Below are positions 5,796 through 54,900 of a stretch of DNA of 64,000 nucleotides, one piece after another. Source of the stretch: Gammaproteobacteria bacterium (GTDB lineage: Bacteria > Pseudomonadota > Gammaproteobacteria > JAJFJF01). Under the pieces are notes generated by a model. It had not been told where the DNA came from and did not search any database. It worked only from the letters and a program-made list of their open reading frames with translations. The position numbers and the translations under genes were made by a program. The stretch covers positions 30,259 to 94,258 of the forward strand of contig JAJFJF010000012.1 in NCBI GenBank assembly GCA_021774255.1. The letters run 5' to 3'. Each line of letters starts with the position of its first letter. Position 1 is the stretch's first letter.

Positions 5796-5816
5796 CCCCC
5801 TTCTCTCTATTAGGTG

Positions 5817-22300: not shown

Positions 22301-23483
22301 CAATAGCCTGTCCTGGGTAGACGCCGGTCACGTTGATTTGAGCATCTACGGTCATCAGTGCACCAAAATTGATACCTACAGCACCCCCCACTAGATAAGC
22401 GCCTCTGACTGCCCCCAAAACGGTGCTCTCCATCACCAGACCTGTGCTTTGTCCTACCAGGCCACCGATACAGCGTCCTGAATGGGCACCGGTCACATCA
22501 ACTTCGGCATAAATACCTGCAAGCGTACCATGATTAAGGCCGAGCACTCCGCCAACCAAAGTCGTGCCTGTTGTCGTAGTAAAAACGGTACTGTTGGTGA
22601 CAGTGCCCGGATTGGATCCTAACAAACCACCAACGAGCTCAACGCCGATCACCTTAGTGTGGGCATAGAGGGCGGTGACTGCGCCATAATTGTTGCCCAC
22701 TGCCCCGCCTACATAAAGGGAACCGGTTACCACGGCAAAAACTTCACCGTTTGTCACTGTGCCCAGCGCACTGTTATACCCCAGCAAACCACCAATAGAG
22801 TGACTCAGGCCGATCCCGGTCAGATTACTTTGGGCACGGATACTTATTAGAGCAGCAGAATTGTAGCCAACTACTCCGCCGACGAGACTGCTCCCTGCTA
22901 CTGTGCCAAAGGCCACCCCCTCAGTCACGGTGCCTTGGTTTCTCCCGACTAAACCACCAATACCCTGTCCTAGGCCTCTACTCTTGACACTCCCTTCTGA
23001 GTAAAGAGCTGTGAGCGTACCTAAGTTATATCCCACTGCCCCGCCGGTATAGACAGTACCTGTTACTACCCCAAGGACTGTGCTGTTGGCGACAGTGCCT
23101 GCATTTCGTCCAACTAAAGCACCGACTTCTTCTTTGCCAACTATTCGAACATGCTTCAAACTCACGCCCTTTATTAGCCCTGTGGTAGCCAGATAGCCAA
23201 ATAATCCTACATAATTTTCATCAGTTCGGTTGCTAGTTAGGTAGCTGATTTCGTACCCGCTCCCATCATATTCACCCGAAAAAGGGGTGGCTAGCGTGCC
23301 AATGGGCCTAAACCCGGCTCCTCCATTCCACGCTTCGCTGCCTGCGCAGCTAATATGATGGGTTTGAATGAAAGAACCCGATAGATTGCCAGCCAAGGCC
23401 TGCAACGACTCACAGCTATCCACAGCGGCTTGCGCGCAAGCCGCCTCTATCAGTAAAAACAGTAGAAAAATTTCCCCAAACAT
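19338..23483 (-). CDS. giant GLUG-like repeat protein with TM segment, ankyrin repeats, RNI-type LRR and conserved C-terminal membrane domain
   Basis: The start was set at MFGEIFLLFLLIEAACAQA, a signal peptide; the track ORF starts 23 codons earlier. The N-cap plus GGLVG/GGAVG repeats and C-cap YWDINATGQ...YPY are followed by a hydrophobic segment. An ANK-like region and an LRR region (LKASHNKITGLGIRCL..LQHLDIRYNRV) come next. The C-terminal domain is YWLLFMPVLGPDLVRL... The N-terminal ~110 aa are nearly identical to those of the divergent neighbour. Confidence 0.8.
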   Translation of the reverse strand: MFGEIFLLFLLIEAACAQAAVDSCESLQALAGNLSGSFIQTHHISCAGSEAWNGGAGFRPIGTLATPFSGEYDGSGYEISYLTSNRTDENYVGLFGYLATTGLIKGVSLKHVRIVGKEEVGALVGRNAGTVANSTVLGVVTGTVYTGGAVGYNLGTLTALYSEGSVKSRGLGQGIGGLVGRNQGTVTEGVAFGTVAGSSLVGGVVGYNSAALISIRAQSNLTGIGLSHSIGGLLGYNSALGTVTNGEVFAVVTGSLYVGGAVGNNYGAVTALYAHTKVIGVELVGGLLGSNPGTVTNSTVFTTTTGTTLVGGVLGLNHGTLAGIYAEVDVTGAHSGRCIGGLVGQSTGLVMESTVLGAVRGAYLVGGAVGINFGALMTVDAQINVTGVYPGQAIGGLVGSNDYYSTVTDSISSGIVRGHAFVGGAVGHNGGTLTALHVQSDVIGADPGESIGGLVGQSKIIGVITNSTAAGTVTGSYRVGGLVGHLEGLLNTSQSWAAVIGYDSATGGLIGESSGDVYHSTAYGPVTGIRIVGGAIGNNLGRAEALAVYSEVEGNVAVGGLAGQNLGIFLRCWVNNTVTARGDRAASLVGDNRAEGHVIESVAFGRLLSEGDDVGALAGLNAGIIDRSYATSRVTGRDNVGLVGRQTAGGVLTHCYGTGAIEGTGRQVGGVIGENDGMVEYCYSLGPVTGKDEAGGLVGHSVGANDHVRFSYTAGCVQSNQAKGGLVGSRADGIFEASYWDINATGQDFPAGESGSFGLRAYGKKTPAMYHWETFQDWDPTIWCIAHGKSYPYHCDLVPDKAPTVPEGPCPGDTTFYEKWMPRWILTVTLMATGLWLETVLHRWRASRRLKRLLESPDRLAWMAEIGNLAAVRWLYTQDASMATRKVKGDTAIEWAAKGGHYDVVQFLCEENRLGEQKAALCRAAYAISQQRYPQIAAYLKPHLGVDVSAEPTAKLVCSKRLQSFVRLTEGQVGLFESWWFFPDPPQLNQVTPEGCIALLSAGTRNRSSEVIALVRKGDNPFICTRKGKRLIQLLIEKNGWMLVYHFMQAADSKSNRWRLSFEILLQLLVQQGRNGPSEVDVSGLGLDDVAFERLLRALQATPVTHLKASHNKITGLGIRCLFEQLGTFPTLQHLDIRYNRVDKRALGSLKAAVRQHSSVLADVLLEGNELLSPDEQDWSRLTVPTLTWKHRWLTQMFYCLPVAWLLLLQRYQVMATWGFFWWIADKVLDGSLIIAMDEDHQNDLVLVSLVFFLLASLGIGLLSLKLMYGTWLPRRAGDLPYWLLFMPVLGPDLVRLRTRTEYADTQLVLLKLLCVAVEDLPQFTIGATYLARQGLSAIVLARLLFSLLSTLAMLIRLLYNLPALHKGWRDLRGMWAFAWR

Positions 23484-23564
23484 CCTGCCTTGGCAAAATA
23501 CTCTCTCCTGATCAATGGCGTAACAAGCAAAGGTAAGATACAAACACGCCATTCAAACGCGAAC

Positions 23565-23784: not shown

Positions 23785-26700
23785 ATGGCTAACAACCGTG
23801 TGCTTCTTTTTTTATTGACACTATCTGCAGCAGTTTTAGCCCAAGAAGAAATAGAGAGCTGCGAGGCGTTACAGGCAGTTGCCGACAACCTTTCTGGCTC
23901 CTTTATTCAAACCCGTCACATTAGCTGCGTAGGCAGCGAAGACTGGAATGGAGGAGCCGGGTTTAGGCCCATTGGCACACTAGCCACCCCTTTTTCGGGT
24001 GAATATGATGGGAGCGGGTACGAAATCAGCTACCTCACTAGTAACCGAACTGATGAAAATTATGTAGGATTATTTGGCTATCTGGCTACCACAGGGCTAA
24101 TAAAGGGCGTAAGTTTGAAATATGTCCGAGTCATTGGAAAAGAGCGAGTAGGCGGTTTAGTTGGCCAAAATAGAGGGGCTGTTTTCGATAGCACAGTGCT
24201 TGGAAATATAACCGGCATATTTATGGTGGCTGGGGTGGCAGGTACTAATCTCGGTACGCTGACCAACATCCGTGCCCAAATTATTATAACGGCCCTCCCC
24301 CCTGGCGAACGTGTTGGCGGCTTGGTGGGGGAAAATACCAACACAGAAGGCGCAACAGGTATCGTGACAAATAGCAGTGCTTTCGGGACGGTCACTGGAA
24401 ACTACTTGGTTGGCGGTGCAGCAGGAAATAATGATGGCACGCTCATAGCGATCCATACCCAAACTCACGTGATTGCAGTTGATCCTGGGGAGTACATTGC
24501 CGGCTTAGCAGGACTCAATATGGGGCTCATCGCTGACAGCAGTGCTTCCGGAACAGTCGTCGGTACCCAGCTCGTCGGCGGAGTGGCAGGTGCCAACTTT
24601 GGCACACTGATTGCCACCTCCCAAGCCAACATCACTGGCAGCAGCAAAGCTACCGGAGGCCTGGTAGGCCAAAATGAAGGCCTCGTAATAGATAGCGCAG
24701 CTTTTGGGGCAGTAACTGGCACAACGCATGTAGGCGGAATTGCAGGCATCAACGGCAACACCATAACGGATACCTTCAGCCATTGCACTGTCATAGGAAT
24801 CGAACCGGGGTGGTACGTTGGCGGTTTAGCCGGCTATAACAGTGGCAGCACCATGAACAGTGCTGTCTATGGCGAAGTAATAGGCACCGCTTATGTAGGT
24901 GGCGCGCTAGGCGTGAATTTCGGCACCTTAACTGCCGTCGATGTTGAAGCCAGCGTGAGTGGCCTCGACCCCGCTGAATTCATCGGTGGTGTAGTAGGCG
25001 AAAATGGCGGCACAGGTATTATCTCAAACGCTACCTTTTTTGGGGAGGTAGTAGGCAGTGCCCAAATTGGCGGCGCCTTGGGCAACAACCTGGGCATAGC
25101 GACTCTCCTCTATTCTCAAGGTGACGTGACCGGCATGACTTCAAGCAAATCTGTCGGCGGATTGTGTGGACGCAATGAACGATTGATCTCCCATAGCACA
25201 GCGAATACCGCAGTCTTCAGTGCGGGCCCCAATGCAGGTGGTTTTGTGGGTGAGAACACTTATACTGGCGAATTACTCAACGCCACTGCTTTGGGAAACG
25301 TTATCAGCACAGCAGACAGTGCCGGCGGCCTAGCGGGGGCTAACCATGGTAAAATTTTTGATAGCCTAGCCCTGGGAAATGTCTCTGCCTATTATCTGGC
25401 GGGAGGACTCATTGGCGTCAACACGATCACCGCGCTTGTTAATCGAAGTGCTTGCTTGGGCGTTGTCTCGGGAACAGAAAGCCAAATCGGAGGATTGATC
25501 GGTCTTCACGAAGGTGTCCTTGAGAACAGCTATGCTTTAGGGTGTGCTTCAGGCACCCATACCGTAGGGGCTTTGCTTGGAAAAAATGAAGGCACACTCA
25601 AACATTGCTACGCTGTTGGTTGTGTGACGGCAGAAAACAACACCGGTGGGCTGGTGGGTGGAACACTGTCATCCCATGATGTTTTCTCTTGTTTCTGGAA
25701 TAAGCACAGCACCGGGCAACGCCACCCTGCTGGCGGGCGCTACGACGCCTCCCTACAAACGCTTGGTCTTTCAAACGAAGAGATCCGTCAGGCTGAGACT
25801 TTTATCGAGTGGGATCCTGGTACTTGGCACATGATTGAAGGCCAGCTTCCTTATCTTCCCTCACTCACACTTGCCCCACAACCTCAGCTACCAACCGAGC
25901 ATTGCCCGATGGCGCCACTGCCCTTTTCTGCCTGGATGAGTGAACTTGCATCCCTGGGTACAGTTTGGATCAGCATGATGCTGCTTTGGCTGATGTGGCG
26001 ACGCTGGCGTACCTTACAACAAAGCTTCCTTGTATGGCAGGATAGATGGCTGTGGCGGGTAGCGACAAAAGGCGATCAACACCTGCTTCACTATCTTCTG
26101 ACTGATAAACCCAATATACCTACCGAAGATGAGCAAGAGATCTCTGCCATTGTTTTCGCCGCACGTATGGGTTTTCTTGAGATGGTGGACACCCTCATTA
26201 AAAAATGGAAGATTCAAGCAACAGAGGAACGTTACACGGAAGCATTGTCCACAGCCCAATATTATGGATACCAAGAGATCATCACACTTTTAAAGCCAAC
26301 AGATGCCGGCTCACTTGTCCCCCCCTCTCCTGTCGAGATGAGAGAAGGAGGCGGCAACCTACGCCGTCGAGCGCAACCACGTAGCGGCGCTGGGGAAGCA
26401 CTATTGGGCACCCATCAACAACACACGCAAGAAGAAGAGCTGTACGAAGCCGCTTCCAACGGACACTACTTTACAACATGGTGGCTACTGCTTAACGAAG
26501 CCATATGTAATCGTGTCTTAGAACAATATCAGACAACACCACTTTGGGCAGCTATCAAAAAGGGGCACTTAAATACAGCACTTTTGCTCGTGGCATATGG
26601 TGCCTTTTTACCAGTACAAAATTCACGTAAGCAAACCGTGGCGCACCTCTTGATAAGCCAGCACCGACGGATCTGGGCCAAGCGTCTGCGCGATGCCAGT

Positions 26701-27678
26701 CCAGAAGCGGCTTTGTGGCCGTTTTGTTTCCGGTTATACCGACAAGCCTTGAGAGATAATAGTGATGCTTTAACGTCAGCCGATCTCAGTGGCTACGGTT
26801 TGGGCGACGAAGCGCTTGCCGATTTAGCGGATGCCATGAAGGGGAATTCTCACCTAACGCACTTGTTAGCCAGCAACAACCATTTCACCGACCGAGGCCT
26901 CCAATACCTGGCACAAGTATTGACTGAGCATGCCGCCATCCCGCTCACTGAAGTGGACGTACGTCATACTTTGGTGACGCAGCGGGGCATTGACGCTTTG
27001 CGGCGGGCCAAGTGTGATCTGACGATCCAATGGGAGGGTACCCGAGCAGATACTACCGTCACTGAAAACCGTTGGGCGCACTGGAGTGAAGCATGGCAGC
27101 AGCGATGCAGTTTGAAGCTCGCCCTCTCCTGGCAACGTTATACATTAGGCCCCCTGTTGGGATGGTGGCTTATCATGGCCCATCGCTTTATCAGCGGCTT
27201 TCTCATTCAAGATTTGGATGAACAGCACCAAGAAGCGCTCATGACAGCAGGAAGCATCTTGTTTATCATTAGCTACGCTAATAGCCTGCTTGCCTTACGC
27301 TACGTCTACGGTGCATGGTGCCCTCGCCAACTACTCGATATCCTAGGCTTCTTGGCGTTGTTGCCTTTACTGTCGCCTGAGCTACTTATCCTTATCTGGC
27401 AAATTAACTACCCGGATGTTGCGCTGACGCTTTTTAGCAGTGCCCAACTCCTGCTTGAAGTCGCACAGGCAACTTTGTTTCTTTATGCCGGCACGTTAGA
27501 AGGGTTTTCAGCATTTATCCTTCTAAAGTTAAGCCTCACGCTTTTTTCGATACTCTGGCACCTGGCCGCTTGGCTTCACCAAGGCACGACTCTCATTCCT
27601 CAATTTCAAGGGCTATGGGAACGCCCCGGAGATTTTTTCACACCAGAGGATCCCGGAGAGGAGATGCGCCAAGTCTAA
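23785..27678 (+). CDS. giant GLUG-like repeat protein with TM segment, ankyrin repeats, RNI-type LRR and conserved C-terminal membrane domain
   Basis: The 1297-aa protein has a signal peptide and GLUG repeats. A TM segment follows (VWISMMLLWLMW). The ANK region reads LWAAIKKGHLNTALLLVAYGA. The LRR region reads LSGYGLGDEALADLADAMKGNSHLTHLLASNNHFTDRGLQYLAQVL. The C-terminal region is multi-helix and hydrophobic. Confidence 0.8.
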   Translation: MANNRVLLFLLTLSAAVLAQEEIESCEALQAVADNLSGSFIQTRHISCVGSEDWNGGAGFRPIGTLATPFSGEYDGSGYEISYLTSNRTDENYVGLFGYLATTGLIKGVSLKYVRVIGKERVGGLVGQNRGAVFDSTVLGNITGIFMVAGVAGTNLGTLTNIRAQIIITALPPGERVGGLVGENTNTEGATGIVTNSSAFGTVTGNYLVGGAAGNNDGTLIAIHTQTHVIAVDPGEYIAGLAGLNMGLIADSSASGTVVGTQLVGGVAGANFGTLIATSQANITGSSKATGGLVGQNEGLVIDSAAFGAVTGTTHVGGIAGINGNTITDTFSHCTVIGIEPGWYVGGLAGYNSGSTMNSAVYGEVIGTAYVGGALGVNFGTLTAVDVEASVSGLDPAEFIGGVVGENGGTGIISNATFFGEVVGSAQIGGALGNNLGIATLLYSQGDVTGMTSSKSVGGLCGRNERLISHSTANTAVFSAGPNAGGFVGENTYTGELLNATALGNVISTADSAGGLAGANHGKIFDSLALGNVSAYYLAGGLIGVNTITALVNRSACLGVVSGTESQIGGLIGLHEGVLENSYALGCASGTHTVGALLGKNEGTLKHCYAVGCVTAENNTGGLVGGTLSSHDVFSCFWNKHSTGQRHPAGGRYDASLQTLGLSNEEIRQAETFIEWDPGTWHMIEGQLPYLPSLTLAPQPQLPTEHCPMAPLPFSAWMSELASLGTVWISMMLLWLMWRRWRTLQQSFLVWQDRWLWRVATKGDQHLLHYLLTDKPNIPTEDEQEISAIVFAARMGFLEMVDTLIKKWKIQATEERYTEALSTAQYYGYQEIITLLKPTDAGSLVPPSPVEMREGGGNLRRRAQPRSGAGEALLGTHQQHTQEEELYEAASNGHYFTTWWLLLNEAICNRVLEQYQTTPLWAAIKKGHLNTALLLVAYGAFLPVQNSRKQTVAHLLISQHRRIWAKRLRDASPEAALWPFCFRLYRQALRDNSDALTSADLSGYGLGDEALADLADAMKGNSHLTHLLASNNHFTDRGLQYLAQVLTEHAAIPLTEVDVRHTLVTQRGIDALRRAKCDLTIQWEGTRADTTVTENRWAHWSEAWQQRCSLKLALSWQRYTLGPLLGWWLIMAHRFISGFLIQDLDEQHQEALMTAGSILFIISYANSLLALRYVYGAWCPRQLLDILGFLALLPLLSPELLILIWQINYPDVALTLFSSAQLLLEVAQATLFLYAGTLEGFSAFILLKLSLTLFSILWHLAAWLHQGTTLIPQFQGLWERPGDFFTPEDPGEEMRQV

Positions 27679-30313: not shown

Positions 30314-30354
30314 CTACCCCTCGAACAGTGAACAGGCCATGAACGCTTAGAACT

Positions 30355-30389: not shown

Positions 30390-30399
30390 GAGAAAAAAA

Positions 30400-36029: not shown

Positions 36030-36483
36030 GATGGGGTGTTTCTTTTAGCGCGCGACGTATTTGATCGCTAGTGAACCCTCGGTAACGAAGGAAATTTATT
36101 TGTTTAGCGTGTTCCTGAACGGTTGTTGTTTGGTTTGTCTCCACGTCAAAACGCTTTAGATAAGCTTGGCGAGCATGCGCTATCCATTGGGCTTCATCAA
36201 GCGCTAAAGCGGCCTCACTTAAAACGCTTTCAATGCCTCGCTCTTGCAGCTCAACACGAATACGTACGGGCCCATAGCCGCGCACGATACGAGCACGCAC
36301 ATACGCTTCGCAAAAACGCTGTTCGCTGAGTAAGTCTTCTTCCAGTAATAAGGCAATAGCAGCATCAATCTCTGTTGCTTGCTCTGGAAAGCGCTGCAAT
36401 AACTTTGTTTTAAGCTCTTTTTGAGAGTGTTCGCGGCGAGCAAGCAGGCGCATGGCTGCTTGCTGTATCTCCACCGCTACCAT
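36016..36483 (-). CDS. recX: recombination regulator RecX
   Basis: The 155-aa protein is immediately downstream of recA. The alaS start overlaps its 3' end. It has the three-helix repeat architecture. Confidence 0.85.
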
Positions 36484-36486
36484 TAT

Positions 36487-37530
36487 TTACTCAGCCGCTT
36501 CCGCTACGCCTTCTTCAGCTACTTTAGAAGTTGCATTAAGGTCAGGCAATAATATCCCTCTTAATTTACCTTCAATTTCAGCTGCAATCTCTGGATTTTC
36601 TTTCAAAAAGGTGCGCACATTGTCTTTACCTTGACCAATACGCTGATCGCCATAGCTATACCAAGCACCGGATTTATCGACAATCCCTTCTTGCACACCT
36701 AAAGAAATGAGCTCACCCTCGCGCGAAATACCTTCGCCGTATAAAATCTCAAACTCAGTTTGCTTAAACGGCGGCGCCACTTTGTTTTTCACGACTTTCA
36801 CACGCGTTTCATTACCGACTACTTCATCGCCTTTCTTAATGGCACCAATACGACGAATATCCATCCGTACTGAAGAGTAGAATTTTAAGGCATTACCACC
36901 GGTCGTGGTTTCAGGGTTACCAAACATCACGCCGATCTTCATACGTATTTGGTTAATAAAGATAACTAAGCAATTGGAACGCTTAATATTTGCTGTCAGT
37001 TTACGTAAGGCTTGAGACATGAGGCGGGCTTGTAACCCCATGTGACTGTCGCCCATATCGCCTTCAATCTCTGCTTTTGGCGTGAGCGCTGCCACCGAGT
37101 CAACCACCAACACGTCAACGGCCGCTGAACGCACGAGCATATCGGTAATTTCCAAAGCTTGCTCACCGGTGTCAGGCTGTGAGACGAGCAAATCATCTAC
37201 ATTCACTCCGAGTTTTCCGGCATAAATTGGATCGAGAGCATGCTCCGCATCCACAAAGGCCGCGGTACCGCCTGCTTTTTGGCATTCCGCAATGACTTGC
37301 AATGTGAGTGTGGTTTTACCCGATGACTCTGGCCCGTAAATTTCCACTACCCGGCCTTTTGGTAAGCCACCAATGCCCAAAGCAACATCTAGCCCCAAAG
37401 AACCTGTTGAAATACTTTCAATATTGCGCGAGACGGTTGAATCGCCCATACGCATCACCGAGCCCTTGCCAAACTGGCGGTCTATCTGACCCAATGCTGC
37501 TTCGAGTGCTTTTGCTTTATTGTCATTCAT
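36487..37530 (-). CDS. recA: recombinase RecA
   Basis: The sequences [23 protein letters not shown]...[24 protein letters not shown] are canonical RecA. Confidence 0.95.
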
Positions 37531-40932: not shown

Positions 40933-43335
40933 ATGACAAGCGCGACCGCAAATATCGAACAACATACCCCCATGATGCAGCAATATCTGCGCATAAAGGC
41001 AGAGCATCCAGACAAATTGCTGTTTTATCGCATGGGCGATTTCTACGAGTTTTTCTTTGAAGACGCAAAGCGTGCTGTCAAATTGCTCGACATCACCCTC
41101 ACCCATCGTGGCCAATCAGGGGGTGAGCCTATCCCCATGGCCGGCGTGCCCTATCATGCGGTAGAAGGCTATTTGGCCAAGCTTATTCGGCTCGGCGAAT
41201 CCATGGCGATTTGCGAACAAGTGGGCGATCCCGCGCTGGCTAAGGGCCCTGTCGAACGCAAAGTTGTGCGCATTGTCACACCCGGCACCGTCACCGATGA
41301 AGCTTTATTAGAAGAACGACAAGAAAATTTACTCGTGGCCATTAGCGAAGCAAAAGGTCATTTTGGTGTGGCCAGCCTCGACATGGGCAGTGGTCGCTTC
41401 CATGTATCAGAAGTGGATAATCTGGAAAGTGTCAGCAGTGAACTGGCACGTTTACAGCCAGCAGAATGTTTGTTGAATGAAGCCTCTGAGGCCCCCATTG
41501 AAATAACCGCCAGCACACAACGCCGCCCGGCACACACCTTTGACATAGATCATGCCACCCGCTTGCTGACCACACAATTTGGCACACAAGATTTATCGGG
41601 TTTTGGTTGTGAGCATTTGCCACTTGGGATCAGCGCTGCCGGTGCCTTATTGCATTATGCGCAAGAAACACAGCGTACCGCCCTGCCTCATATTCGTGGT
41701 TTACGGGTACAATCTTCTGATGACAGTGTCACGCTTGATGCCACCACGCTGCGTAATTTAGAATTACTCACGAATCTTTCTGGCGGCAAAGAGCACACGC
41801 TGGCTTGGGTGCTCGATCATACCGCGACCCCGATGGGCAGTCGCTTGCTGCGGCGCTGGATTAAACGGCCGTTAAAAGATCACAACACGCTGACTCGCCG
41901 ACACCAAGCGATCCATACATTACTTTCAAAACAGACTTATGAAAATATCACGCCCTTGCTTAAAAGCATCGGCGATATCGAGCGCATTTTAGCCCGCATT
42001 GCCTTGCGCAGCGCCCGCCCACGCGATTTGGTCGGTTTGCGGCAAGCCTTAAGCACCCTGCCTGCACTGCAAAAAATACTAGGCACGTTAGACAATCCTT
42101 TTCTGCAGAAACTGAGTACCCAAATTGGTGAATTTCCCGAGTTATTTGCTCTGCTTGCCCGTGCAATTGAAGCGTCCCCTGCGCAATTGATCCGCGATGG
42201 CGGCGTGATTGCCGATGGGTTTGATGCCACACTCGATGAACTGCGCCAAATCAGTGAACATGCCGGGCAATATTTAATTGATTTTGAGGCCACCGAGCGT
42301 GAGCGCAGCGGCTTGCCCACATTGAAAGTCGGCTTTAACCGTGTGCATGGTTATTATATTGAAATCAGCAAAGCGCAAGCCGGCCAAGCACCTGAGCATT
42401 ACACACGTCGTCAAACGCTCAAAAATGCCGAGCGCTATATTACGCCGGAACTCAAAACCTTTGAAGACAAAGTACTCAGCAGCCGCGAACGCGCGTTAGC
42501 GCGAGAAAAAGCCCTCTATGAAAGCTTATTAGACGATTTACTAAACGTATTACCTGAACTGCAACAATGCGCACATAGCCTGGCGGTGCTGGATGTTTTA
42601 ACAAACCTGGCTGAACGTGCCGACATACTTCATTTTACTTGCCCTACTTTTACCGAGCAGCCTGGCATTCATATCGAGGAAGGTCGCCACCCCGTCATCG
42701 AGCAGGTACAGTCCGCGCCCTTTATTCCAAACGATGTGATACTCAACGAGGCTGATCGCATGCTGATCATCACCGGCCCCAATATGGGCGGTAAATCAAC
42801 GTATATGCGGCAAACCGCGTTGATCACTCTGCTGGCCTATATGGGCAGCTTTGTGCCTGCAAAAGTCGCCCAGTTTGGGCCGATTGATCGGATTTTTACG
42901 CGCGTGGGCGCCGCGGATGATTTAGCCAGCGGCCGCTCGACGTTTATGGTGGAGATGACAGAAACCGCCAACATTCTGCTTAATGCCACGGCACAGAGTT
43001 TGGTGTTATTAGATGAAGTTGGGCGTGGTACCAGCACCTACGATGGCTTGGCGCTTGCCTGGGCGGTCGTCACGCATCTTGCGGAAGAAACAAAAGCCTT
43101 TACGCTCTTTGCTACCCATTATTTTGAACTCACCAGCCTACCTGAATCGATTAAAAACATCAGCAATGTGCATCTTGATGCTGTCGAGCACAATGATGAT
43201 ATTGTCTTCCTGCACAAGGTTAATCCTGGCCCCGCCAGCCGCAGCTATGGCCTACAAGTTGCCAAACGTGCGGGGATTCCTGAAGCTATTATTCAGCAGG
43301 CAAAAGAAAAGTTAAATCAACTAGAACAGCATTAA
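40933..43335 (+). CDS. mutS: DNA mismatch repair protein MutS
   Basis: The 800-aa protein has a mismatch-binding N-terminus ([30 protein letters not shown]). The Walker A motif is GPNMGGKST. The C-terminus is the standard one. Confidence 0.95.
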
Positions 43336-43499
43336 TACGTGGGTAAACTTGTCTAATCCACACAACTCCTTAGGAAGTGCCCTTGAATCGATTCATAGTT
43401 ATTTAAATAACAAAGTATTTGCCGTTTTATTTTTGCGAGAGGATCCTCCGCTTTGTATCGTTACTAGTCACATAGATTGGCTTGTTTAAATGTGCGGCA

Positions 43500-46400
43500 C
43501 TAAAGCGTCGACATTTCAATATCACCCGGCAACGTGCCTGCTCTGGGTTTATCAGCTAACGCTTGCTTCCCAAAGCATCTTCCTTTTAACTGCCATAATT
43601 GCTGGCGCATCGTTGGCAAATCATAAAACAATAACTTGCTCAGAAAAAAGAGGGATGCGGTAAAAGCAACAACGACCTTAATCAACACAAAAGTATTGCT
43701 CCCCTTGCGAGTCAAAAACAATACCCCAATTGTAAATTGCGGCACATCTTCCAGGGAGAAGTTAGCGATTTTCATTTTGGCAAAACGTTGGTCGATGTAT
43801 TCAACACCCCACTCCAAGCGAACCCATTCTGGGCTTAAAATAGGCAAGGTAAGTAACCAGTAAGGACATTCGGATAACGACTTCGGATACCAACGACCAC
43901 GCACAGTCCGCATACCCCACAAACCAATTCCATACGATGCAAATAAAAACAGGGTCGAATAGAGGGCTAGCTGAGCTTCATCATTAGCCAGCAATTCACG
44001 GATCAAAAAGGCGTCTGAGATCCTATCGGCCATCTCCAGCATAAAACCAAATACAGTGACAAGTTGATAGCGCTGCAGGCGAAGTTGAATATGCTCAAGC
44101 TGTGCACCAAACATGTTCAGCAACGAACAAGAGGGCGCGTTCTGAAGCAGTTCTTCATTTGCGTTGCCCAACTGACGTTGCGACAAATACTGGTTCAGTT
44201 GGTTCCAGTAAACATCATTTTGAGGCAAGAGCTCATTATTAGCGAGTTCAACTATCCGCAAGACCGTTTGCCTTTGCAAGGCCCGCATCAGCAAGCGCAC
44301 GCTAGCAACATCAAGCAAATTGTCACTCAAATCCAACTTGGTTAATTGGGCAGGCAAACCAGGCCCTTCGAGCCAACCACGCAAACCCACCACGCTCAGA
44401 CTGTTGCGCGCCAAATTGATTTCAGTTACCACGGTATTGTTAGAAAGTGCTTGTGCTAGCTTTTGAAGCTGTACATCCGTGAGATTTTGTCCGCTCAAAT
44501 CAAGGTGTGTGAACTGCGGTGCATTCTCTTCAATGGCCTGCAAGAACAAGTCAAAACTCGCAGGCCAAACAGCGTAATAAGGGCTCGCTCGTACAAGCAA
44601 CTGTGCATCTACACGCTTGCCTTGCATGATAGCCATATCAATGGCCGTGTAGCCTTTGGGTGAACGCACAAACAGATCTGCACCGTCGCCAACAAATTTT
44701 TGGGCCTCGTAAAAATCACCAAGACAAACAGCCAGCATCGGTGGCGTAAGGCCAGAACAGTTGACTAGATTTATCTCAGTGTGGTCTTTTGCTGCCACAA
44801 GATCATGCTCTGATAACAAACTCAGTGATAAACCCGCTTTCAGTTCTTCATCAATTTGCTGCTGATACTGTTGCTCAATGGCCTCACTGTTTGGAATATA
44901 TTGATTGACGCCCTTGTGACCATTGTTGATTGCTGCTTTTAACGCTACTTCAAATGCGAACAAGGAGTCTTGCACAGACATCTTGGAAACAAGGTACGCC
45001 ACGACCTCCAGGTGCCCACCTTGCGCAGCCCACCATAAAGGCGTGTGGCCTTCAGCATCTTCTGCCATGACAGAAGCGCCCTTCTCTTCAATCTGCCACT
45101 TGACGAGCGAGAGGCTGCCGATTTGCGCGGCAGCATGCAATGGATGAAAGACGGCTTGCTTCTGACGACGACGCCACATGAGCCAGGCAAATCCCAGCGC
45201 GGCTGCACCCGCCGTCACACCAATATAGCTATTGAGCTGCGTCTGGTACAAAGCGGGTGGGATAGGACAAGCATCAACAGGTTTGATCGGTATCATGCTT
45301 GTCTGAAATTGCAAGTAAGGATAGCTATCGCCTTTGGCAATTTGCCATATCTGCTCAAAATCCCAGCCTTGATAAGTGTTGGGCTGGTACATTGCTTGGG
45401 TCTGTCTGCGATAGCGGCGGCGATAGCTGTAATACTGATCGTTCACACCGGGCAAAGACTGCCCCGTCGTCGAGACATCCCAGTAAGACTGGCTCACCAG
45501 CGCAGTATCCAAAAATGAGCCTGTCAGAGCGCCTACACTATTACCTTGCACACAACCTGAAACATAACAATTGCTAAAGCGTCCGCTGTTTTGGCCAATC
45601 AATCCACCGACATTTTGCTCACCTGTTGTGCTCGTGACGGCATAGCTATCAATAAGTTCTCCGCTGTGCACACCAATCAGGCCGCCCGTTTGGCGTACGC
45701 CGATCACGCGTGACTGGGCAAAACACTGAGTGATCTCTCCTAGGTTATGCCCAACCAGTCCACCGGCCGTTTGTGCTGCTGCCACTTCGCCCAGCGCATA
45801 ACTGCTCAAGATATCACCACTATTTCTACCCACTAATCCGCCGGCGGTGTCTTGTGCTGTCACAGAACTGTTACTATGGCTAAATATTAACGTGCCTGAA
45901 TGGTCCGCAATTAAGCCACCCGCTTCTTCAAGAGCCGTGACGTCTGCTTTGCTGTGACAAGACGATACCTCACCTTGGTTCCGAGCAATGAGGCCCGCCA
46001 CTGTGAAATTGCCATTCACCACCGCACTTGCTGAACAATCTGTTACTGTGCCTGTGTTTTCGGCGATGAGGCCTGCAACCGTATCGATACCGTCAACCTG
46101 ACCTGTAAAGTGACTATTGCTCACCTCACCCTGGTTAACACCGAGCAGGCCTGCGCCGATAGCCACCGTCAGACTGACGCTACCGGTCACCTGGCAATGA
46201 GAGACACTTCCTTGATGATAGCCAACCAATCCACCAATGATTTCTTGACCGTGAATATTCACTTCCTCAAGAATAACGTTACGGATCTCCGCCGTGGCTG
46301 CGGTGTAACCAAAAAGACCCAAGCGCGTCTTGTCGGGCTGGTTCATGTAGAGAGAACGAATGCGATAGCCCTGCCCATCAAAAACGCCTGAAAAAGGTTC

Positions 46401-49400
46401 AAAGGTATCGGCATCTTGGTACCAGCCCAAGGGTAAAAAACCTTTCCCATCATTCCAATTTTCTGTCTCCATACAATCAATATCTTGTGAGAGGTAAGCA
46501 GTCGCATTGGGGCAAACGCTTTGTAAGCTGAGACAGTCAGTCACATTAACGACACTTTCAGTCGCTTCAATGGGTGCCAGACGACGCAGCTGGGGATAAC
46601 GTTGGCATCCCAGCCACCACGTATGGATAAAGTCCCAGGTTGCATAGTTAGCTTGCCATTGCATCAGCTGAGTAGAGCGCCCCTGACCACCTGCACTTGC
46701 TGTTTGACCAGAAATATCGACATCCCAGTAGCTATGCGTTGTGGTTGCGCCAGTACTGCTAAACCCAACCAAGCCGCCCAAGTTTTCACTACCTTGAACA
46801 GGGCTTGCTGCGTAACAGGCAATGATTTGGTTTTGGTTCCAGCCCACTAAACCACCCAGCAGGTTCACACCTTGCACATTGACTGAGCTTGCACTATTTC
46901 TAAGCACACCTTCTTGCCAGCCAATCAGGCCGCCTGCAATCGCGTCTGTGGCCGTTACCTGTCCTGTCACATGTGTGTAAGCCACCCTGCCGTTATTCCA
47001 GCCCACTAGGGCACCTGTATAACGCCCACCGTTAACATTCACATTTATGAGAGAAACATTACCGATGACTGTCGTCTGTGCGGTATAGCCAAACAAGCCA
47101 ATGTAGTCTTCATCAGGACGATTAATGGTCAAACCGCTGATTGCGTAACCTTGCCCATCAAAATAACCAGCAAATGGACCGGTTAATGAAGCGTCTTGGA
47201 ACCAACCCAAGGGAAGAAAACCCTTGCCGTTATTCCAATTAGCCGTATCACTACAGTCAATGTCTTGCGTGAGATAAACGCTTACGTCAGCATCAAGGCA
47301 AACTTCCCCCAGCGCCTCACAAGTAGACACCCAGAAAACGTTAGTATTGTTGTCAGGCGCATTGCTCCATACTTGAAGCTGTGGGTAGTTTTGACACGGG
47401 AAACGCCAAACAGTGGCGCTGTCCCATGCCTCATAGTTATTTTGCGCACGCATCACCTGCGATATTCTACCGACACCGCCTGCACTAGTGGTTTGTGCTG
47501 ACGTTTGAATATCCCAGTAAGCATCTTGTACAAAACCGCTGCCCTGGCCAACAAGGCCACCTGCATGCGTGTTTGCCGCAACGTTACCTATCGCGTAGCT
47601 TGCAGAGACGATGCCATCATTCAGCCCCACTAAGCCACCCGCGATATGGTCTGCGCTCACAGGTCCTGTCGCATAAGTATTTTCTAAAATAGTGAGATGG
47701 TGACCCATCAGGCCACCTACTGTCGAATTACCTGATACCGCGCCCGTGGCAAAACTTTGCGTCACGGTCACCCTATTTTTGCCAACAAGCCCACCTACTG
47801 AGTAATTACCTGTTACGTCGCCCGCCGCAAAGCAGCGCTCAAGCGCTATCTCAAATTCATCAAGTTCATAGTCATGAGCACCTATTAGACCACCTACAAA
47901 ATTTTGGCCACTCACGGCACCTAAGGCATAGCAGTCTGTCACGCTGCCGATGTTAAAACCGAGCAACCCGCCAAAATAACGACCACCTGCGCTGATAGCA
48001 CTGACAGCTCCAGTAGCATGAAGATGACGGATACTGACTTTTTCATTAGCACCTATTAGGCCACCTACATACTGTTTACCAAAAACATTACCCTGTGCTG
48101 TGGTATTAATGAGTATGCCGTTATTCCAACCGATCAAACCACCCACATAGCTATCACCTCTTACATCGCCACTAGCCGTCACATTCGTCAAGGAGCCTTG
48201 TCTATTTTCGCCCAAGAAACCACCTACGTAATGGCCTGAGCTTTCCACGTTACCGCTGGCATAGACGTTCCTAAAAACGACATTAGTGCCCATGTTGGAA
48301 CCCAGTAGGCCGCCCACGTAGTTAGCCGAACCCGAGAAGTTACCCGTAGTGTAAATATTGTCGAAAACAACACCATCACCACTGTTGAAGCCTAGCAGAC
48401 CACCAATGTAGTTAGCCGAACCCGAGAGGTTACCCGTAGTATAAATATTGTCGAAAACAACGCTATCAGCACTGTTGAAACCCAGTAGGCCACCAACGTA
48501 ATTAGTCGAACCTGACACGTCAGCGCTAGCATAGATATTACTAAAAATAAAACCATCAATGTTATTAGAGCCGAGCAAACCGCCAACAGCACTTGAGCCC
48601 ATCACACTACCTGTAACACTAACGTTCTCAAAAGTTCCAGTGTTAAAGCCTAACAGACCACCAACATGATCGCCTAAGGCCTCCACGCTGGCAGAAACAT
48701 AGGCATTGCTGAGAAAGCCCGTGTTATAGCCCAGCAAACCAGCAACGTAGTTGCCTGAACTTACCACGCTGCCGCTGGAATAGGCGTTAGTCAGAAAACC
48801 GGAATTGTACCCTAACAGACCACCAACGTAGTCAGCTGAGCCTATCACGCAAGCTGTAGCAGTGACGTTATTGAGAGTGCCAGAGTTGCTGCCTACTAGG
48901 CCACCGATGCGTTCTGAGCCTGCAATATTGCCACTCACATAAACGTTGCTAAGGGTGCCACCGTAATTGTAGCCCGCCAGGCCGCCAACGTATCTGCCTG
49001 AAGCCGTCACATTGCCACTAACAGTGACGTTGTTGATGGGGGCCAGGTTATTATAACCGACCAGACCACCAATGTAGTCGCCTGAGCCCGTTACGTTACT
49101 CCTAACATAGACATTACTGATAGTGCCGGAGCTCTTGCCGACCAGACTACCCACATATTCATTACCTGATACACTTCCGTCTAGTAAAGTGACAGCATCT
49201 ACTTGCGCCAAAGCGCCGATACTGACAAATAATCCCAGATAAGATATTGTTGTGCGATCAATAACTAGCCCTGAAATGCTATAGCCCTGCCCCAAAAAAG
49301 CGCCAGTGATAGCAAGCCCTGTGCCAGGTAAAAACCCCGCACCACCGTTCCAGTTCGCCGTATCGACACAATCAATATCCTGGCCAAGGATAATAGTGCC

Positions 49401-51982: not shown

Positions 51983-54900
51983 GTGATGGCATCTAAGCTA
52001 TTTCTGTTTTTGTTGGTTCTGCTCGCTTGTGTGTCCCATGGGCAAGCAGTTATCCCGATCTCGAGCTGCACTGAATTGCAGGCGATGAATAACAATCTGG
52101 CGGAGCATTATCAGCTGAGCTCAAACACCGATTGCTCTGCCACCTCTAGCTGGAATGCCGGCGAAGGTTTAGAACCCATTGGGAGTTCTGCAGCCCCTTT
52201 TGCAGGCACCTTTGATGGCCAAGGCTATGAAATCTCAGGTTTGCTCATCAACCGTCCCACAATGAATTATGTCGGCTTATTTGGTTACACAAATAGTAAC
52301 GCTCATATCCAATCCGTAAACTTGCCCGGAGGAAGTGTCTCGGGCTATATCTATGTTGCCATCTTGATAGGCTACAACGCCGGCACTATCAGCAACGTCA
52401 CTACCAGCGGTAGTGTGACGAGCTCAGGCAGCAACGTTGGTGGCCTGGTCGGCAGTAACACCGGCACCCTCAGCAACGCCGCTGCCGCCTGTAGTGTGAC
52501 GAGCTCAGGCAGCAACCTTGGTGGCCTGGTGGGCAGTAACACCGGCACCCTCAGCAACGTCATTGCTACCGGCAGTCTGATAGGAACGGGAACAAGTTTA
52601 AGCCGTTCCCTCGGCGGCTTGGTGGGCTACAATGCCGGCCCCCTCAGTAATGTTACCGCTACCGGCAATGTGGCAGGGGGAGCAAGCAAGTATGTTGGCG
52701 GCTTGGTGGGCCACAACACCGTTCCCCTCAACAACGCCTCCGCCACCGGTAGTGTAGCAAGCTCAGGTTATTACGTCGGCGGCCTGGTAGGCTATAACTT
52801 CGGCCCCCTCAGCAACGTCTATGCTACTGGCGATGTGACAGGGGGAGCTTTAACTTACTATCTCGGCGGCTTGGTGGGCACCAACACCGCTCTCCTCAGC
52901 AATACCTACGCCACGGGTAACGTAGCGACGAACTCAGGTTATTACGTCGGCGGCCTGGTAGGCCAGAACAGCAACACAGGCGAGATCAACAACGTTTACG
53001 CCACCGGCAGTGTAGCGAGCTCAGGCAATTACGTCGGTGGCCTGGTGGGCCACAACACAGGCTTTCTTGCTAACACCTATGCTAGCGGCAGTGTGACGAC
53101 CTCAGGCAATTACTTCGGTGGCCTAATGGGTCACAACTCCGGCGGCGGCACCCTTAGCAATGGATATTGGGATACTCAAACTTCGGGACAGAGCACAAGT
53201 GCGGGAGGCGGCGGTACTGTTGGTAAAAGCACGACTCAGATGTACCAACAAGCCACTTTCCAAGGCTTTGACTTTGAGTGCGTCTGGACCATTAATGAAG
53301 GCGTGAGCTACCCCGAGCTGACGTTTGCTGATTGTAGTCATCGTACGATCACCGTCATGACATGTACTGAGCTACAGGAAGCTGTGGCGCTCATGGGGGC
53401 CAGCATTATTCTGGGTCAAGACATTGATTGCGCCGATACAGCGAACTGGAACGGCGGCGCAGGCTTTTTGCCCGGCACAGGACTTACTAGCACTGGCGCT
53501 TTTTGGGGTCAGGGCTATAGCATTTCAGGGCTAGTTGTTAACCGCACAAGCACATCGGCTGTCGGCTTATTTGCCAGCATTGGAACATTGGTTCAAGTGG
53601 ATAGCGTCAGATTACTAAAAGGAAGTATTTCAGGTGACGACTATGTAGGCAGCCTGGTCGGCAAGAGCTCCGGCACTATCAGTAACGTCTATGCTGCCAG
53701 CAACGTGACCGGCTCAGGCAATTACGCCGGCGGCTTGATAGGCCGGAACTACGGCGACCTTAGCAACGTTTATGCCAGTGGCAGTGTGATCTGCTCAGGC
53801 AATTACGCCGGCGGCTTGATAGGCCAGAACTACGGCGACCTTAGCAACATTTATGCCAGTGGCAGTGTGATCTGCTCAGGCGTCGTCGGCGGTCTGGTAA
53901 GCAGCAACACCGGCATTCTTAGCAATGGATATTGGGATACTCAAACTTCGGGACAGAGCACTAGCGCGGGAGGCGGCGGTACTGTTGGTAAAAGCACGAC
54001 ACAGATGTACCAACAAGCCACTTTCCAAGGCTTTGACTTTGAGTGCGTCTGGACCATTAATGAAGGCCTGGGCTACCCCGAACTGACCTTTGCTCATTGC
54101 AGCAACCGCACCATCACCGTCATGACATGTATTGAACTCCAAGAAGCCGTTGCCCTCATGGGGGCCACCATTATTCTGGCTCAGGACATTGACTGCACCG
54201 ATACAGTGAACTGGAACGACGGCGCGGGCTTTTTGCCTGGCACAGGACTTACTGCCAGTGGCGCTTTTTGGGGTCAGGGCTATAGCATTTCAAGGCTAGT
54301 TGTTAATCGCACAGCCACATCGTCTGTAGGCTTATTTGTCAGTATCGGCGCTTTGGCGCAAGTGGATACCGTCAGCTTACTAGGAGGAAGTGTCTCAGGT
54401 GACGACTATGTAGGTAGCCTGGTCGGCAAGAGCTCCGGCACTATCAGTAACGTCTATGTTACCGGCAACGTGACGGGCTCAGGCAACTACATTGGAGGCC
54501 TGGTGGGCAGGAGCTCCGGCACTGTCAGTAACGTCTATATTACCAGCAACGTGACGGGCTCAGGCGACTACATTGCTGGTCTAGTCGGTTATAATGACCT
54601 GGCCACCATCAACAACGTCACTGCCAGCGGCAGCGTAACAGCTTCAGGCAGATACGTTGGCGGCCTGGTGGGCTCGAACTCCGGCCCCCTTAGCAACATC
54701 AGTGTTAGCGGCAGTGTGACGGGCTCAGACTACTTCACTGGTGGCCTGGTAGGCTATAACAACCTGGCCACCATCAACAACGTCACTGCCAGCGGCAGCG
54801 TAACAGCTTCAGGCAGATACGTTGGCGGCCTGCTGGGCTCAAATTCCGGTTCACTTAGCAACGTTTATGCAAGTGGCAACGTTCAAGGCTCAAGCCACAT

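What the first reader, a model, noticed from the sequence alone, without database searches (positions are those of the whole stretch)
48240..54460. Near-perfect intragenic tandem DNA repeats (84/87-bp units and a ~760-bp module duplication) predict length hypervariability of the giants
Units of 87 bp (29 aa) repeat almost identically in 48240-48600 and 49740-50340 in the minus gene. An 84-bp unit is doubled at 52380-52560. In the plus gene a ~760-bp block (53161-53700 against 53920-54460, covering C-cap + N-cap + first repeats) is duplicated with >90% DNA identity. Such repeats are substrates for slipped-strand or RecA recombination that adds or removes 28-29-aa repeats or whole modules in frame. 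That is classic surface-protein size variation. It is also a misassembly risk for short reads.
Basis: seen in the sequence. Interest (0 to 1): 0.5.

Follow-up and report, generated by a model that had tools for sequence, protein, structure and literature searches.

The report
Diverged in-frame repeats in giant beta-helix genes
Two head-to-head giant membrane-protein genes carry real in-frame DNA repeats, but the copies are only 84-95% identical and look like old traces of recombination between protein repeats, not a rapidly length-switching surface protein.

Summary
The repeats are real but misdescribed. No 87-bp period exists. True periods are 90 bp (48293-48512), 84 and 249 bp (49708-50408), 81 bp (52376-52580, 53705-53881, 54417-54575) and 165 bp (54479-54862). 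One block recurs at an offset of exactly 765 bp (53141-53710 and 53906-54475). Identity is 84-95%, not near-perfect. The longest exact tract is 71 nt, and dS between copies is 0-0.4. Identity still beats every synonymous-codon shuffle, so these are DNA-level events.

The genes (gA 43500-51713 minus, gB 51983-60505 plus) encode a signal peptide, 5-6 capped GLUG beta-helix modules, a TM helix, ankyrin and LRR repeats, and a conserved C-terminal membrane domain. All DNA repeats lie in the three distal modules.

A 38%-identical homologue (P0003) matches gB's distal modules turn for turn (426/252/557 vs 446/255/557 aa). The only whole-turn difference falls exactly at the 81-bp pair at 52376-52539. 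So most of the similarity is best read as length-preserving gene conversion, with rare one-turn gains.

The 5' ends of both head-to-head pairs are homogenised, and so are the protein N-termini of a relative's gene pair.

Recombination is supported; hypervariability is not, and no conspecific sequence exists to test it.

The parts
43500..51713 (-). gA, giant gene of 2737 aa: signal peptide, 5 capped GLUG beta-helix modules (292/453/701/263/425 aa), TM helix, ankyrin repeats, LRR, conserved C-terminal membrane domain
   Evidence: ORF; translation; Pfam Glug 5.6e-92 and Ank; module map; tail model
51983..60505 (+). gB, giant gene of 2840 aa (ATG at 51986): same architecture with 6 modules (446/255/557/261/264/479 aa)
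   Evidence: module M2 AlphaFold model, pLDDT 93.5, capped beta-helix; IgA1-protease N-domain relatives
51714..51982 (.). 269-bp divergent intergenic region between gA and gB; no consensus sigma-70 promoter found
51421..51585 (-). Left arm of a 165-nt inverted repeat (81% complementary, 540 nt apart) formed by the first-module N-caps of gA and gB; partner at 52126-52290
52126..52290 (+). Right arm of the gA/gB 5' inverted repeat
48293..48512 (-). 90-bp (30-aa turn) tandem array in gA module 3; 2.4 copies at 84%; one pair at 87% (dS 0.41)
49708..50408 (-). 84-bp turns organised as a 249-bp (83-aa, three-turn) super-repeat in gA module 2; two copies at 86-87% (dS 0.39)
   Evidence: a 27-aa extra turn lies here relative to gB module 1
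51177..51368 (-). 78-bp (26-aa turn) array in gA module 1; 2.2-2.5 copies at 80-87%
52376..52580 (+). 81-bp (27-aa turn) array in gB module 1; best pair 86% (dN 0.17, dS 0.10). Coincides with the only whole-turn (26-aa) gap against homologue P0003, so a real one-turn gain or loss
53141..53710 (+). Junction block J1: C-cap of module 1, N-cap of module 2 and its first turn. 88.8% identical without gaps to J2, 765 nt downstream (dN 0.08, dS 0.27; dS 0.11-0.51 along the block)
53906..54475 (+). Junction block J2: C-cap of module 2, N-cap of module 3 and its first turn; partner of J1
53705..53881 (+). 81-bp pair in gB module 2, 95% identical (4 differences, all non-synonymous). No extra turn relative to P0003 module 2, so best read as conversion of one turn by its neighbour
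54417..54862 (+). 81-bp (89-92%) and 165-bp (83-85%, with a 71-nt exact tract at 54597/54762) repeats in gB module 3. Module length is 557 aa, as in P0003 module 3
49083..49382 (-). gA junction block J2 (N-cap of module 3 end of the block), 75% identical to its partner at 50442-50741 (spacing 1359). gA J2 is 81% identical to gB J2 in inverted orientation (dS 0.66)
19338..23552 (-). gC, 1404-aa paralogue (one long GLUG module plus the same tail), head-to-head with gD
23785..27678 (+). gD, 1297-aa paralogue
23071..23444 (-). Left arm of the gC/gD 5' inverted repeat (374 nt, 84% complementary, 385 nt apart; dS 0.47, against saturated dS elsewhere in the pair); partner at 23830-24203
23830..24203 (+). 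Right arm of the gC/gD 5' inverted repeat
36487..37530 (-). recA (with recX at 36016-36483): the homologous-recombination machinery is present
40933..43335 (+). mutS, 800 aa, lacking the C-terminal ~55-aa tetramerisation domain; immediately upstream of the 3' end of gA

Best explanation
The flagged repeats are DNA-level footprints of homologous recombination among the turns and module junctions of a modular beta-helix ectodomain.

What the genes encode. gA and gB are ancient head-to-head paralogues. Each encodes a signal peptide, 5-6 capped GLUG beta-helix modules (one 26-30-aa repeat per helix turn), a TM helix, cytoplasmic ankyrin and LRR repeats, and a conserved C-terminal membrane domain.

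What happens to the repeats. In the three membrane-distal modules, turns and cap-to-cap junctions have been partly homogenised. This has happened within each gene, between the two inverted genes, and between the 5' ends of the second pair, gC/gD. The likely process is RecA-type gene conversion acting on homeologous sequence (inferred). Occasionally unequal exchange adds or removes exactly one or two turns in frame. One such event is visible at 52376-52539.

Tempo. The copies have since diverged (dS 0.1-0.5). Module and turn numbers are conserved with a very distant homologue. The locus therefore changes slowly on an evolutionary timescale and does not behave like a contingency locus.

Shown: repeat anatomy, the excess of DNA identity over the protein-level expectation, fold, domain order, collinearity with P0003, the 5' homogenisation gradient.
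Inferred: the recombination mechanism, its rate, and the cellular location of the ectodomain.
For: Repeat anatomy and in-frame spacing.

Identity exceeds all 200 synonymous-codon shuffles.

dS between copies is 0-0.41, with patchy dS along the 765-nt block. Its longest identical run of 66 nt has permutation P=0.013.

All DNA repeats lie in modules M1-M3. gC/gD have GLUG repeats but no direct DNA repeats of 40 nt or more.

Homogenisation gradient. Distal gA-gB dS is 0.66-1.2 and the gC-gD N-cap dS is 0.47. Proximal modules and tails are saturated, at 42-52% nt identity.

Distal modules of gA and gB are 40-65% identical to each other but 31-41% identical to P0003/P0006. Tails and proximal modules instead pair with their orthologues at 45-50%.

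Independent N-terminal homogenisation appears at protein level in a second genome's gene pair. P0289 and P0333 are 92-97% identical over about 120 aa and 40-47% after that. Both come from contigs recorded as 184,734 bp.

Turn-for-turn collinearity of gB M2 and M3 with P0003 M2 and M3, and a single 26-aa gap at the 81-bp pair in M1.

Gaps between paralogous modules are quantised in whole turns.

Near-identical turns (at least 75% aa identity) number 21 in gA+gB and 0 in P0003/P0006.

Fold and homology.

recA/recX are present, and no invertase or transposase was found among the ORFs of at least 150 aa scanned in the window.
Against: No conspecific genome, read set or relative's DNA could be obtained, so neither rates nor present-day polymorphism were measured.

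Conversion cannot be formally separated from duplication followed by a compensating deletion.

Only one distant homologue (P0003) supports the length-conservation argument. gA's distal modules (292/453/701 aa) do differ strongly from those of P0003 and P0006, so some lineages did change length.

Exact tracts of 30-71 nt would allow RecA-mediated deletion or duplication at appreciable frequency. That holds especially if the truncated MutS weakens the barrier to homeologous exchange.
Confidence: 0.6

Rival explanations
1. One reading: the arrays are contingency-type substrates that change copy number at high frequency within populations by slipped-strand mispairing or RecA unequal crossover, giving size-variable surface proteins.
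For: In-frame periods and exact tracts up to 71 nt. One turn-sized difference lies exactly at an array. Indels between paralogous modules are quantised in whole turns. RecA is present. MutS lacks the domain that E. coli needs for anti-recombination.
Against: Copies are 84-95% identical with dS 0.1-0.4, whereas, from my own knowledge, the classic size-variable proteins carry essentially identical repeats. Modules that hold the best repeats have the same turn number as a 38-40% identical homologue. There are only 2-2.5 good copies per array.
Confidence: 0.15
2. Recombination between the inverted 5' arms of the head-to-head genes inverts the promoter-bearing segment, or larger distal parts. That would swap promoters or distal ectodomain halves between the two paralogues, as a RecA-driven switch without a dedicated invertase.
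For: Both pairs carry inverted arms in the first N-cap around the divergent intergenic region: 165 nt at 81% and 374 nt at 84%. The distal 3.5 kb of gA and gB are similar in inverted orientation. P0003 has a gA-type tail and proximal modules but gB-type distal module lengths, and its best module-3 match is to gB. A relative's gene pair is homogenised at its protein N-termini in the same way.
Against: Arms are only 81-84% identical, with exact tracts of 32 nt or less between the genes, so inversion would be rare. Gene conversion without crossover explains the homogenisation equally well. The P0003 pattern can also be retention of an ancestral architecture in one paralogue per lineage. No reads were available to show both orientations.
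Confidence: 0.15
3. Assembly artefact: the repeats were created, collapsed or made chimeric by short-read or metagenome assembly.
For: The contig seems to come from an unnamed NCBI assembly with no close relatives, so a metagenome-assembled genome is possible.
Against: Copies differ at 5-16% of positions in a codon-aware pattern (dN/dS about 0.3 for the long blocks) and keep an 8.2-8.5 kb reading frame open. Exact repeats are no longer than 71 nt, shorter than typical reads. Module architecture matches an independent homologue.
Confidence: 0.04
4. No recombination at all: the similarity of the copies reflects only purifying selection on a repeated protein motif plus codon bias.
For: The GLUG motif is strongly conserved and the repeats are protein-coding.
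Against: Synonymous-codon shuffles never reach the observed identity. gC/gD and the proximal modules carry the same motif without DNA-level repeats. dS between copies is far below the saturated dS of the rest of the paralogues.
Confidence: 0.02

Closest known systems
N-terminal GLUG beta-helix domain of IgA1 proteases / M26 family (PDB 3n6z, 6xja, 6xjb, 7uvl)
   Same: Sequence-profile and fold match of a whole module. Profile E-values are 3e-14 to 2e-11. Foldseek gives probability 1.0 with TM-score 0.46-0.59. Same GLUG turn repeat (PF07581).
   Different: No M26 catalytic domain was found. Here 5-6 capped modules are strung together and followed by a TM helix, ankyrin/LRR repeats and a membrane domain.
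Size-variable tandem-repeat surface proteins of Gram-positive cocci (alpha C/Rib, Esp, Aap/SasG, M proteins); comparison from my own knowledge
   Same: In-frame intragenic repeats that can be gained or lost as whole structural units by homologous recombination.
   Different: Those repeats are essentially identical at the DNA level and vary between isolates. Here copies are 84-95% identical, there are 2-2.5 copies per array, and turn number is conserved with a distant homologue.
Giant GLUG-containing filamentous-haemagglutinin-like (TpsA) proteins
   Same: They are the nearest database neighbours by GLUG content, and many are 2,000-4,600 aa. Long beta-helical repeat proteins.
   Different: gA and gB have no TPS, haemagglutinin or ESPR domains. 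Instead they have a Sec-type signal peptide, a stop-transfer TM helix and a cytoplasmic tail.
Campylobacter fetus sap locus (RecA-dependent inversion between oppositely oriented S-layer gene homologues with conserved 5' ends); from my own knowledge
   Same: Head-to-head paralogues whose 5' coding ends form inverted repeats around the promoter region.
   Different: From memory, the sap 5' regions are near-identical and share one promoter. Here the arms are 81-84% identical, each gene has its own 5' end, and no inversion has been observed.
Concerted evolution of inverted duplicate genes by RecA gene conversion (for example tufA/tufB in enterobacteria); from my own knowledge
   Same: Paralogue homogenisation limited to part of the genes. 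It is seen independently in this genome (DNA level) and in a relative's gene pair (protein level).
   Different: Only the 5' distal part is homogenised, and only to dS 0.5-1.2. The rest is saturated.

Membership tests
GLUG-motif repeat proteins (Pfam PF07581) | Multiple GLUG motifs scoring above the curated Pfam threshold | tested here: met
   Glug E=5.6e-92 (gA) and 8e-81 (gB), far above the 20.5-bit cut-off
GLUG-motif repeat proteins (Pfam PF07581) | Right-handed beta-helix in which each repeat forms one turn | tested here: met
   AlphaFold model of gB module 2, pLDDT 93.5, all-beta with capping helices. Best PDB matches are IgA1-protease N-domains 3n6z and 7uvl
IgA1 protease / peptidase M26 | C-terminal zinc-metalloprotease catalytic domain | tested here: not met
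   Only a sub-threshold Peptidase_M26_N match (25.5 bits against a cut-off of 27.7) and no catalytic-domain hit in either giant
Two-partner-secretion TpsA / filamentous haemagglutinin | N-terminal TPS (haemagglutination activity) domain PF05860 | tested here: not met
   Absent from the Pfam hits of gA, gB, gC and gD, although present in several database neighbours
Size-variable tandem-repeat surface proteins / contingency loci | Near-identical (about 98-100%) tandem DNA repeats in several copies | tested here: not met
   Best array is 95% identical over 2.2 copies; the others are 74-92%
Size-variable tandem-repeat surface proteins / contingency loci | Copy-number polymorphism between isolates or within a population | not testable with these tools
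   No conspecific protein or contig in any collection
Size-variable tandem-repeat surface proteins / contingency loci | Exposure at the cell surface | not testable with these tools
   Signal peptide plus a stop-transfer TM helix predict an extracytoplasmic ectodomain. Passage through an outer membrane is unknown
Site-specific invertible elements (invertons, shufflons) | Adjacent invertase or tyrosine/serine recombinase gene | tested here: not met
   No recombinase or transposase family among the ORFs of at least 150 aa scanned in the window. The 229-aa ORF at 30199-30888 and the 268-aa ORF at 37896-38702 had no hits; smaller ORFs were not scanned
RecA-dependent inversion systems (C. fetus sap type) | Oppositely oriented homologues with conserved 5' regions flanking the promoter | tested here: inconclusive
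   Arms are present (165 nt at 81%; 374 nt at 84%) but diverged. Both orientations could not be looked for without reads

The most novel reading that the evidence does not exclude
The window may hold an undescribed family of giant type-I-like bacterial membrane proteins: a modular GLUG beta-helix ectodomain, a TM helix, cytoplasmic ankyrin and LRR repeats, and a novel membrane domain. The family is confined to a handful of contigs in public data and kept as head-to-head pairs in this window. In this reading the inverted 5' arms let RecA homogenise, and occasionally invert, the promoter-bearing and distal ectodomain parts. That would give an invertase-free way of reshuffling which distal ectodomain or promoter goes with which signalling tail. 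It would possibly be helped by the neighbouring, naturally CTD-less MutS, which would be expected to be weak in anti-recombination.
Probability: 0.15. Interest if true: 0.65.

Novelty: new variant of a known kind. Interest (0 to 1): 0.35.

Why it matters
As submitted (tandem repeats imply a length-hypervariable surface protein), the finding is a routine and somewhat overstated observation on a repeat protein.

The locus has more value as a clean natural example of how a beta-solenoid ectodomain evolves. Change comes in whole-turn quanta and by conversion among turns and cap junctions. Homogenisation is restricted to the membrane-distal half and to the 5' ends of head-to-head paralogues, while turn number is conserved over deep time.

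It also exposes a rare protein architecture that the two literature searches run here did not find described. Its function is unknown, and it occurs in a gammaproteobacterial lineage with no close sequenced relative.

Tried and rejected
1. Exact look-ups of the source contig and of relatives' contigs (gA, AlaS, P0001, P0003, P0011, P0028) found nothing on record. No DNA of relatives and no synteny could be obtained.

2. Cluster look-ups gave no names or accessions.

3. Genome-collection scans with the C-terminal-domain alignment A2 and with P0289 found no relatives.

4. Metagenome scans: A2 found nothing. A degenerate pattern for QQATFQG[FW]DF found one unrelated single-module GLUG lipoprotein on a contig that looks Bacteroidota-like from its gene content (my reading, not tested) (L001).

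5. A profile search of the 5.8-billion-protein set with A1 returned no hit at all, not even the input proteins. I regard this as a failed search, not as evidence.

6. The representative search with the whole tail was swamped by ankyrin proteins. Only nine full-length tail matches were usable.

7. Fold search of the tail returned only ankyrin/DARPin structures and says nothing about the C-terminal membrane domain. The afdb50 library was unavailable.

8. Literature searches for GLUG with ankyrin or with giant proteins found nothing relevant. A generic search on head-to-head genes, inversion and conversion gave no close precedent.

9. Rfam and promoter scans found nothing in the gA-gB intergenic region.

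11. Rejected ideas: the repeats as codon-bias or selection artefacts, and a site-specific inverton (no recombinase found).

Full report
**What is at the coordinates.** The finding spans the 5' halves of two divergently transcribed giant ORFs. gA is 43500-51713 on the minus strand (2737 aa). gB is 51983-60505 on the plus strand (2840 aa, with an ATG at 51986). They are separated by 269 bp.

The window is a bacterial chromosome. It carries cinA-recA-recX-alaS, mutS, an nlpD-like gene, surE and eno. MutS is only 65-66% identical to its best relatives, which are various Gammaproteobacteria, so there is no close sequenced relative.

**Check of the observation.** The stated unit sizes are wrong.
- At an 87-nt offset, identity is at background (0.30-0.33) in both minus-gene regions.
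- The real periods there are 90 nt (48293-48512, 2.4 copies, 84%) and 84 nt nested in a 249-nt three-turn super-unit (49708-50408; super-unit copies 86-87%).
- At 52380-52560 the period is 81 nt (offset identity 0.89), not 84 (0.39).
- The '~760-bp' duplication is an ungapped match at an offset of exactly 765 nt, 53141-53710 against 53906-54475.
- The most similar repeats are an 81-nt pair at 53705-53881 (95%) and a 165-nt pair containing a 71-nt exact tract (54597/54762). After that come exact tracts of 66, 44, 43, 35 and 34 nt at the 765 offset. In gA the longest is 35 nt.

'Near-perfect' is therefore an overstatement. The repeats are still far beyond what a repeated protein motif alone would give. 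In 200 shuffles that permute synonymous codons, no shuffle reached the observed identity of any tested pair, and the longest exact repeat never exceeded 32 nt.

**What the genes encode.** Both proteins, and a second head-to-head pair (gC 19338-23552 minus, gD 23785-27678 plus), share one plan:
- a signal peptide;
- one to six modules;
- a hydrophobic stop-transfer helix followed by basic residues;
- ankyrin repeats and a short LRR;
- a conserved helical C-terminal membrane domain.

The tail model has pLDDT 75.9.

Each module has three parts: an N-cap (..DIDC..WN.G.GF.P..F.G.FDGQGY.I..L.INRP), a run of GLUG turns mostly 26-28 aa long, and a C-cap (YWD..SGQ..SAGG...WDF..W.I.EG.SYP.L). Module lengths are 292/453/701/263/425 aa in gA and 446/255/557/261/264/479 aa in gB.

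An AlphaFold model of gB module 2, built on an alignment of 12 modules, is a capped beta-helix (pLDDT 93.5, pTM 0.91). Profile and fold searches place it with the N-terminal domain of IgA1 proteases (3n6z, 6xja, 7uvl). No protease, TPS or other catalytic domain is present.

The full architecture is rare. Among 1.84 billion representative proteins, the only full-length tail matches are the window's own genes plus P0003, P0011, P0076, P0282, P0289 and P0333. All are unnamed NCBI singletons from five other contigs. Two literature searches for GLUG with ankyrin or giant proteins found nothing relevant.

**Where the DNA repeats lie and how old they are.** Every DNA-level repeat sits in the three membrane-distal modules of gA and gB. 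The proximal modules show only short N-cap motif matches at the DNA level (54-66 nt, 63-89% identity) and no tandem arrays. gC/gD have no direct repeats of 40 nt or more, although they are just as full of GLUG turns.

Synonymous divergence between copies is modest but not small:

| Repeat | dS |
|---|---|
| 765-nt block | 0.27 (dN 0.08), ranging 0.11-0.51 along the block |
| 249-nt super-unit | 0.39 |
| 90-nt pair | 0.41 |
| 165-nt pair | 0.27 |
| 81-nt pairs | 0.10-0.16 |
| 81-nt pair at 53705 | 0 (all four differences non-synonymous) |

The copies have coexisted for a long time. That is not what one sees in repeats that are continually expanded, deleted and re-homogenised.

**Comparative evidence.**

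*Orthology.* By tail and proximal modules, gA pairs with P0003 and gB with P0006 (45-50% identity; module lengths 263/425 against 260/426, and 264/479 against 263/477). In contrast, the distal modules of gA and gB resemble each other (40-65%) more than any module of the other genome (31-41%).

*DNA gradient.* At the DNA level the paralogues are saturated in tails and proximal modules (42-52% nt identity). dS is 0.66-1.2 in the distal blocks and 0.47 in the gC/gD N-cap.

*5' inverted arms.* The 5' coding ends of both pairs form inverted repeats around the divergent intergenic region. For gA/gB the arms are 165 nt at 81%. For gC/gD they are 374 nt at 84%.

*A second genome, at protein level.* P0289 and P0333 come from contigs recorded as 184,734 bp, most likely the same one. 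They are 92-97% identical over about 120 N-terminal residues and 40-47% beyond that. Cross-genome comparisons of these regions give 40-50%. Homogenisation of the N-terminal ends of paralogue pairs has therefore happened independently in two lineages. No DNA of that relative could be obtained, so whether its genes are also head-to-head is unknown.

*Turn-for-turn collinearity.* gB modules 1-3 are collinear with P0003 modules 1-3 (426/252/557 aa) at 37-40% identity.
- Modules 2 and 3 contain the 95% 81-nt pair, the 165-nt pair and both copies of the 765-nt block. They show no whole-turn gap against P0003.
- Module 1 shows a single 26-aa gap, located exactly at the 81-nt tandem pair 52376-52539.

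*Distribution of near-identical turns.* Turns at least 75% identical in amino acids number 21 in gA+gB and none in P0003/P0006.

*Gap sizes.* Alignments between paralogous modules inside the window have gaps of 26-27, 31 and 51-57 aa, that is one or two turns.

**Interpretation.** The simplest account has three parts.
- The distal ectodomain undergoes homologous (homeologous) recombination among turns, among cap junctions and between the inverted paralogues.
- The usual outcome is conversion, which preserves length.
- Rare unequal exchange adds or removes whole turns in frame.

recA and recX are intact. No invertase or transposase was found among the ORFs of at least 150 aa that were scanned.

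The prediction of length hypervariability is not supported, and is contradicted for the modules that hold the best repeats. It cannot be tested directly. No conspecific sequence exists in the protein set or the contig collections, and no relative's DNA could be fetched.

Misassembly risk is low. Exact repeats are no longer than 71 nt, the copies differ in a codon-aware way, and the architecture is corroborated by P0003.

'Classic surface protein' is also uncertain. The topology predicts an extracytoplasmic ectodomain anchored in the cytoplasmic membrane with an ankyrin/LRR tail inside. Whether it reaches the cell surface is unknown. With about 50 turns per protein, and taking about 0.48 nm per turn from my own knowledge of beta-helices, stacked modules would span roughly 25 nm. 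That may be why turn number is conserved, but this is speculation.

**Alternatives.**
- A population-level contingency mechanism remains possible (0.15).
- An inversion between the 5' arms, swapping promoters or distal halves between the paired genes, is compatible with three things: the arm geometry, the inverted similarity of the distal 3.5 kb, and P0003 combining a gA-type tail with a gB-type distal architecture. Conversion without crossover, or retention of an ancestral architecture, explains the same data (0.15; not exclusive of the main account).
- Assembly artefact (0.04) and pure selection or codon bias (0.02) are unlikely.

**Verdict.** The protein architecture, and the homogenisation restricted to the 5' ends of head-to-head pairs, are an unusual variant worth a note rather than a headline. 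Interest 0.35.

Noticed in passing
window 19338-27678: A second head-to-head pair of the same family: gC (1404 aa) and gD (1297 aa), each with one long GLUG module and the same TM-Ank-LRR-membrane tail. Their first-module N-caps form a 374-nt, 84% inverted repeat, 385 nt apart. A 59-aa stretch is identical at protein level although overall dS is 0.47.
   Followed up: yes
window 40933-43335: MutS stops at residue 800 and lacks the ~55-aa C-terminal tetramerisation and clamp-binding domain that all listed relatives have. No remnant is visible in any of the three forward frames of the 165 bp before gA. It is a natural equivalent of E. coli MutS800, which PMC1636413 reports as null for anti-recombination when chromosomal. 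This could relax the barrier to recombination between 84-90% identical repeats.
   Followed up: partly
window 2510-7465: A third divergent pair of GLUG genes: 2510-4027 minus (505 aa) and 5927-7465 plus (512 aa). Both are single-module proteins with an N-terminal hydrophobic, signal-peptide-like segment and without the membrane tail. They flank a LuxR-family regulator (5031-5795) and a 74%-similar upstream ORF (4447-5034). A 20-nt palindrome TTTTGCTGCATGCAGCAAAA occurs twice (4445-4464 and 5819-5838; 0.01 expected by chance), upstream of the 4447 ORF and of the 5927 GLUG gene. It may be an operator.
   Followed up: partly
window 51627-51713: The database gene call for gA (P0001, 2708 aa) starts 29 codons downstream of the ATG at 51713 and so omits the signal peptide MVLKLFFFVVLVACASAQ. 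Likewise the longest gC ORF begins about 23 codons upstream of the probable start (MFGEIFLLFLL...).
   Followed up: partly
window 43336-60616: The two giants occupy the whole interval between mutS and the nlpD-like gene, a 181-aa VTT-domain gene and surE. From my own knowledge, this is the position of the polymorphic mutS-rpoS region in enterobacteria. No rpoS was found among the ORFs annotated in the window.
   Followed up: no
window 1062-2255 and 39465-40670: Two paralogous AAA_14/DUF4143 ATPase genes, one at the left edge next to the small GLUG pair and one just upstream of mutS. Function unknown.
   Followed up: no
window 9167-10270, 13556-14386: A Fic/DOC-domain protein with DUF4172, and an FKBP-type isomerase with the FKBP_N domain. 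From my own knowledge this is the domain arrangement of Mip. Together with the ankyrin/LRR tails this gives a host-association flavour, but nothing was tested.
   Followed up: no
proteins P0289, P0333, P0028 (contig length 184,734 bp recorded for each), P0003 and P0006 (82,867 bp each): Other genomes seem to keep several family members on one contig, and one such pair shows the same N-terminal homogenisation at protein level. Turn-level homogenisation is lineage-specific: strong in gA, gB, P0011 and P0282, absent in P0003, P0006, gC and gD.
   Followed up: partly
(tool behaviour): A profile search with alignment A1 against the 5.8-billion-protein set returned no hit, although the aligned proteins themselves are in that set. 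This should be treated as a failed search, not as evidence of absence.
   Followed up: no
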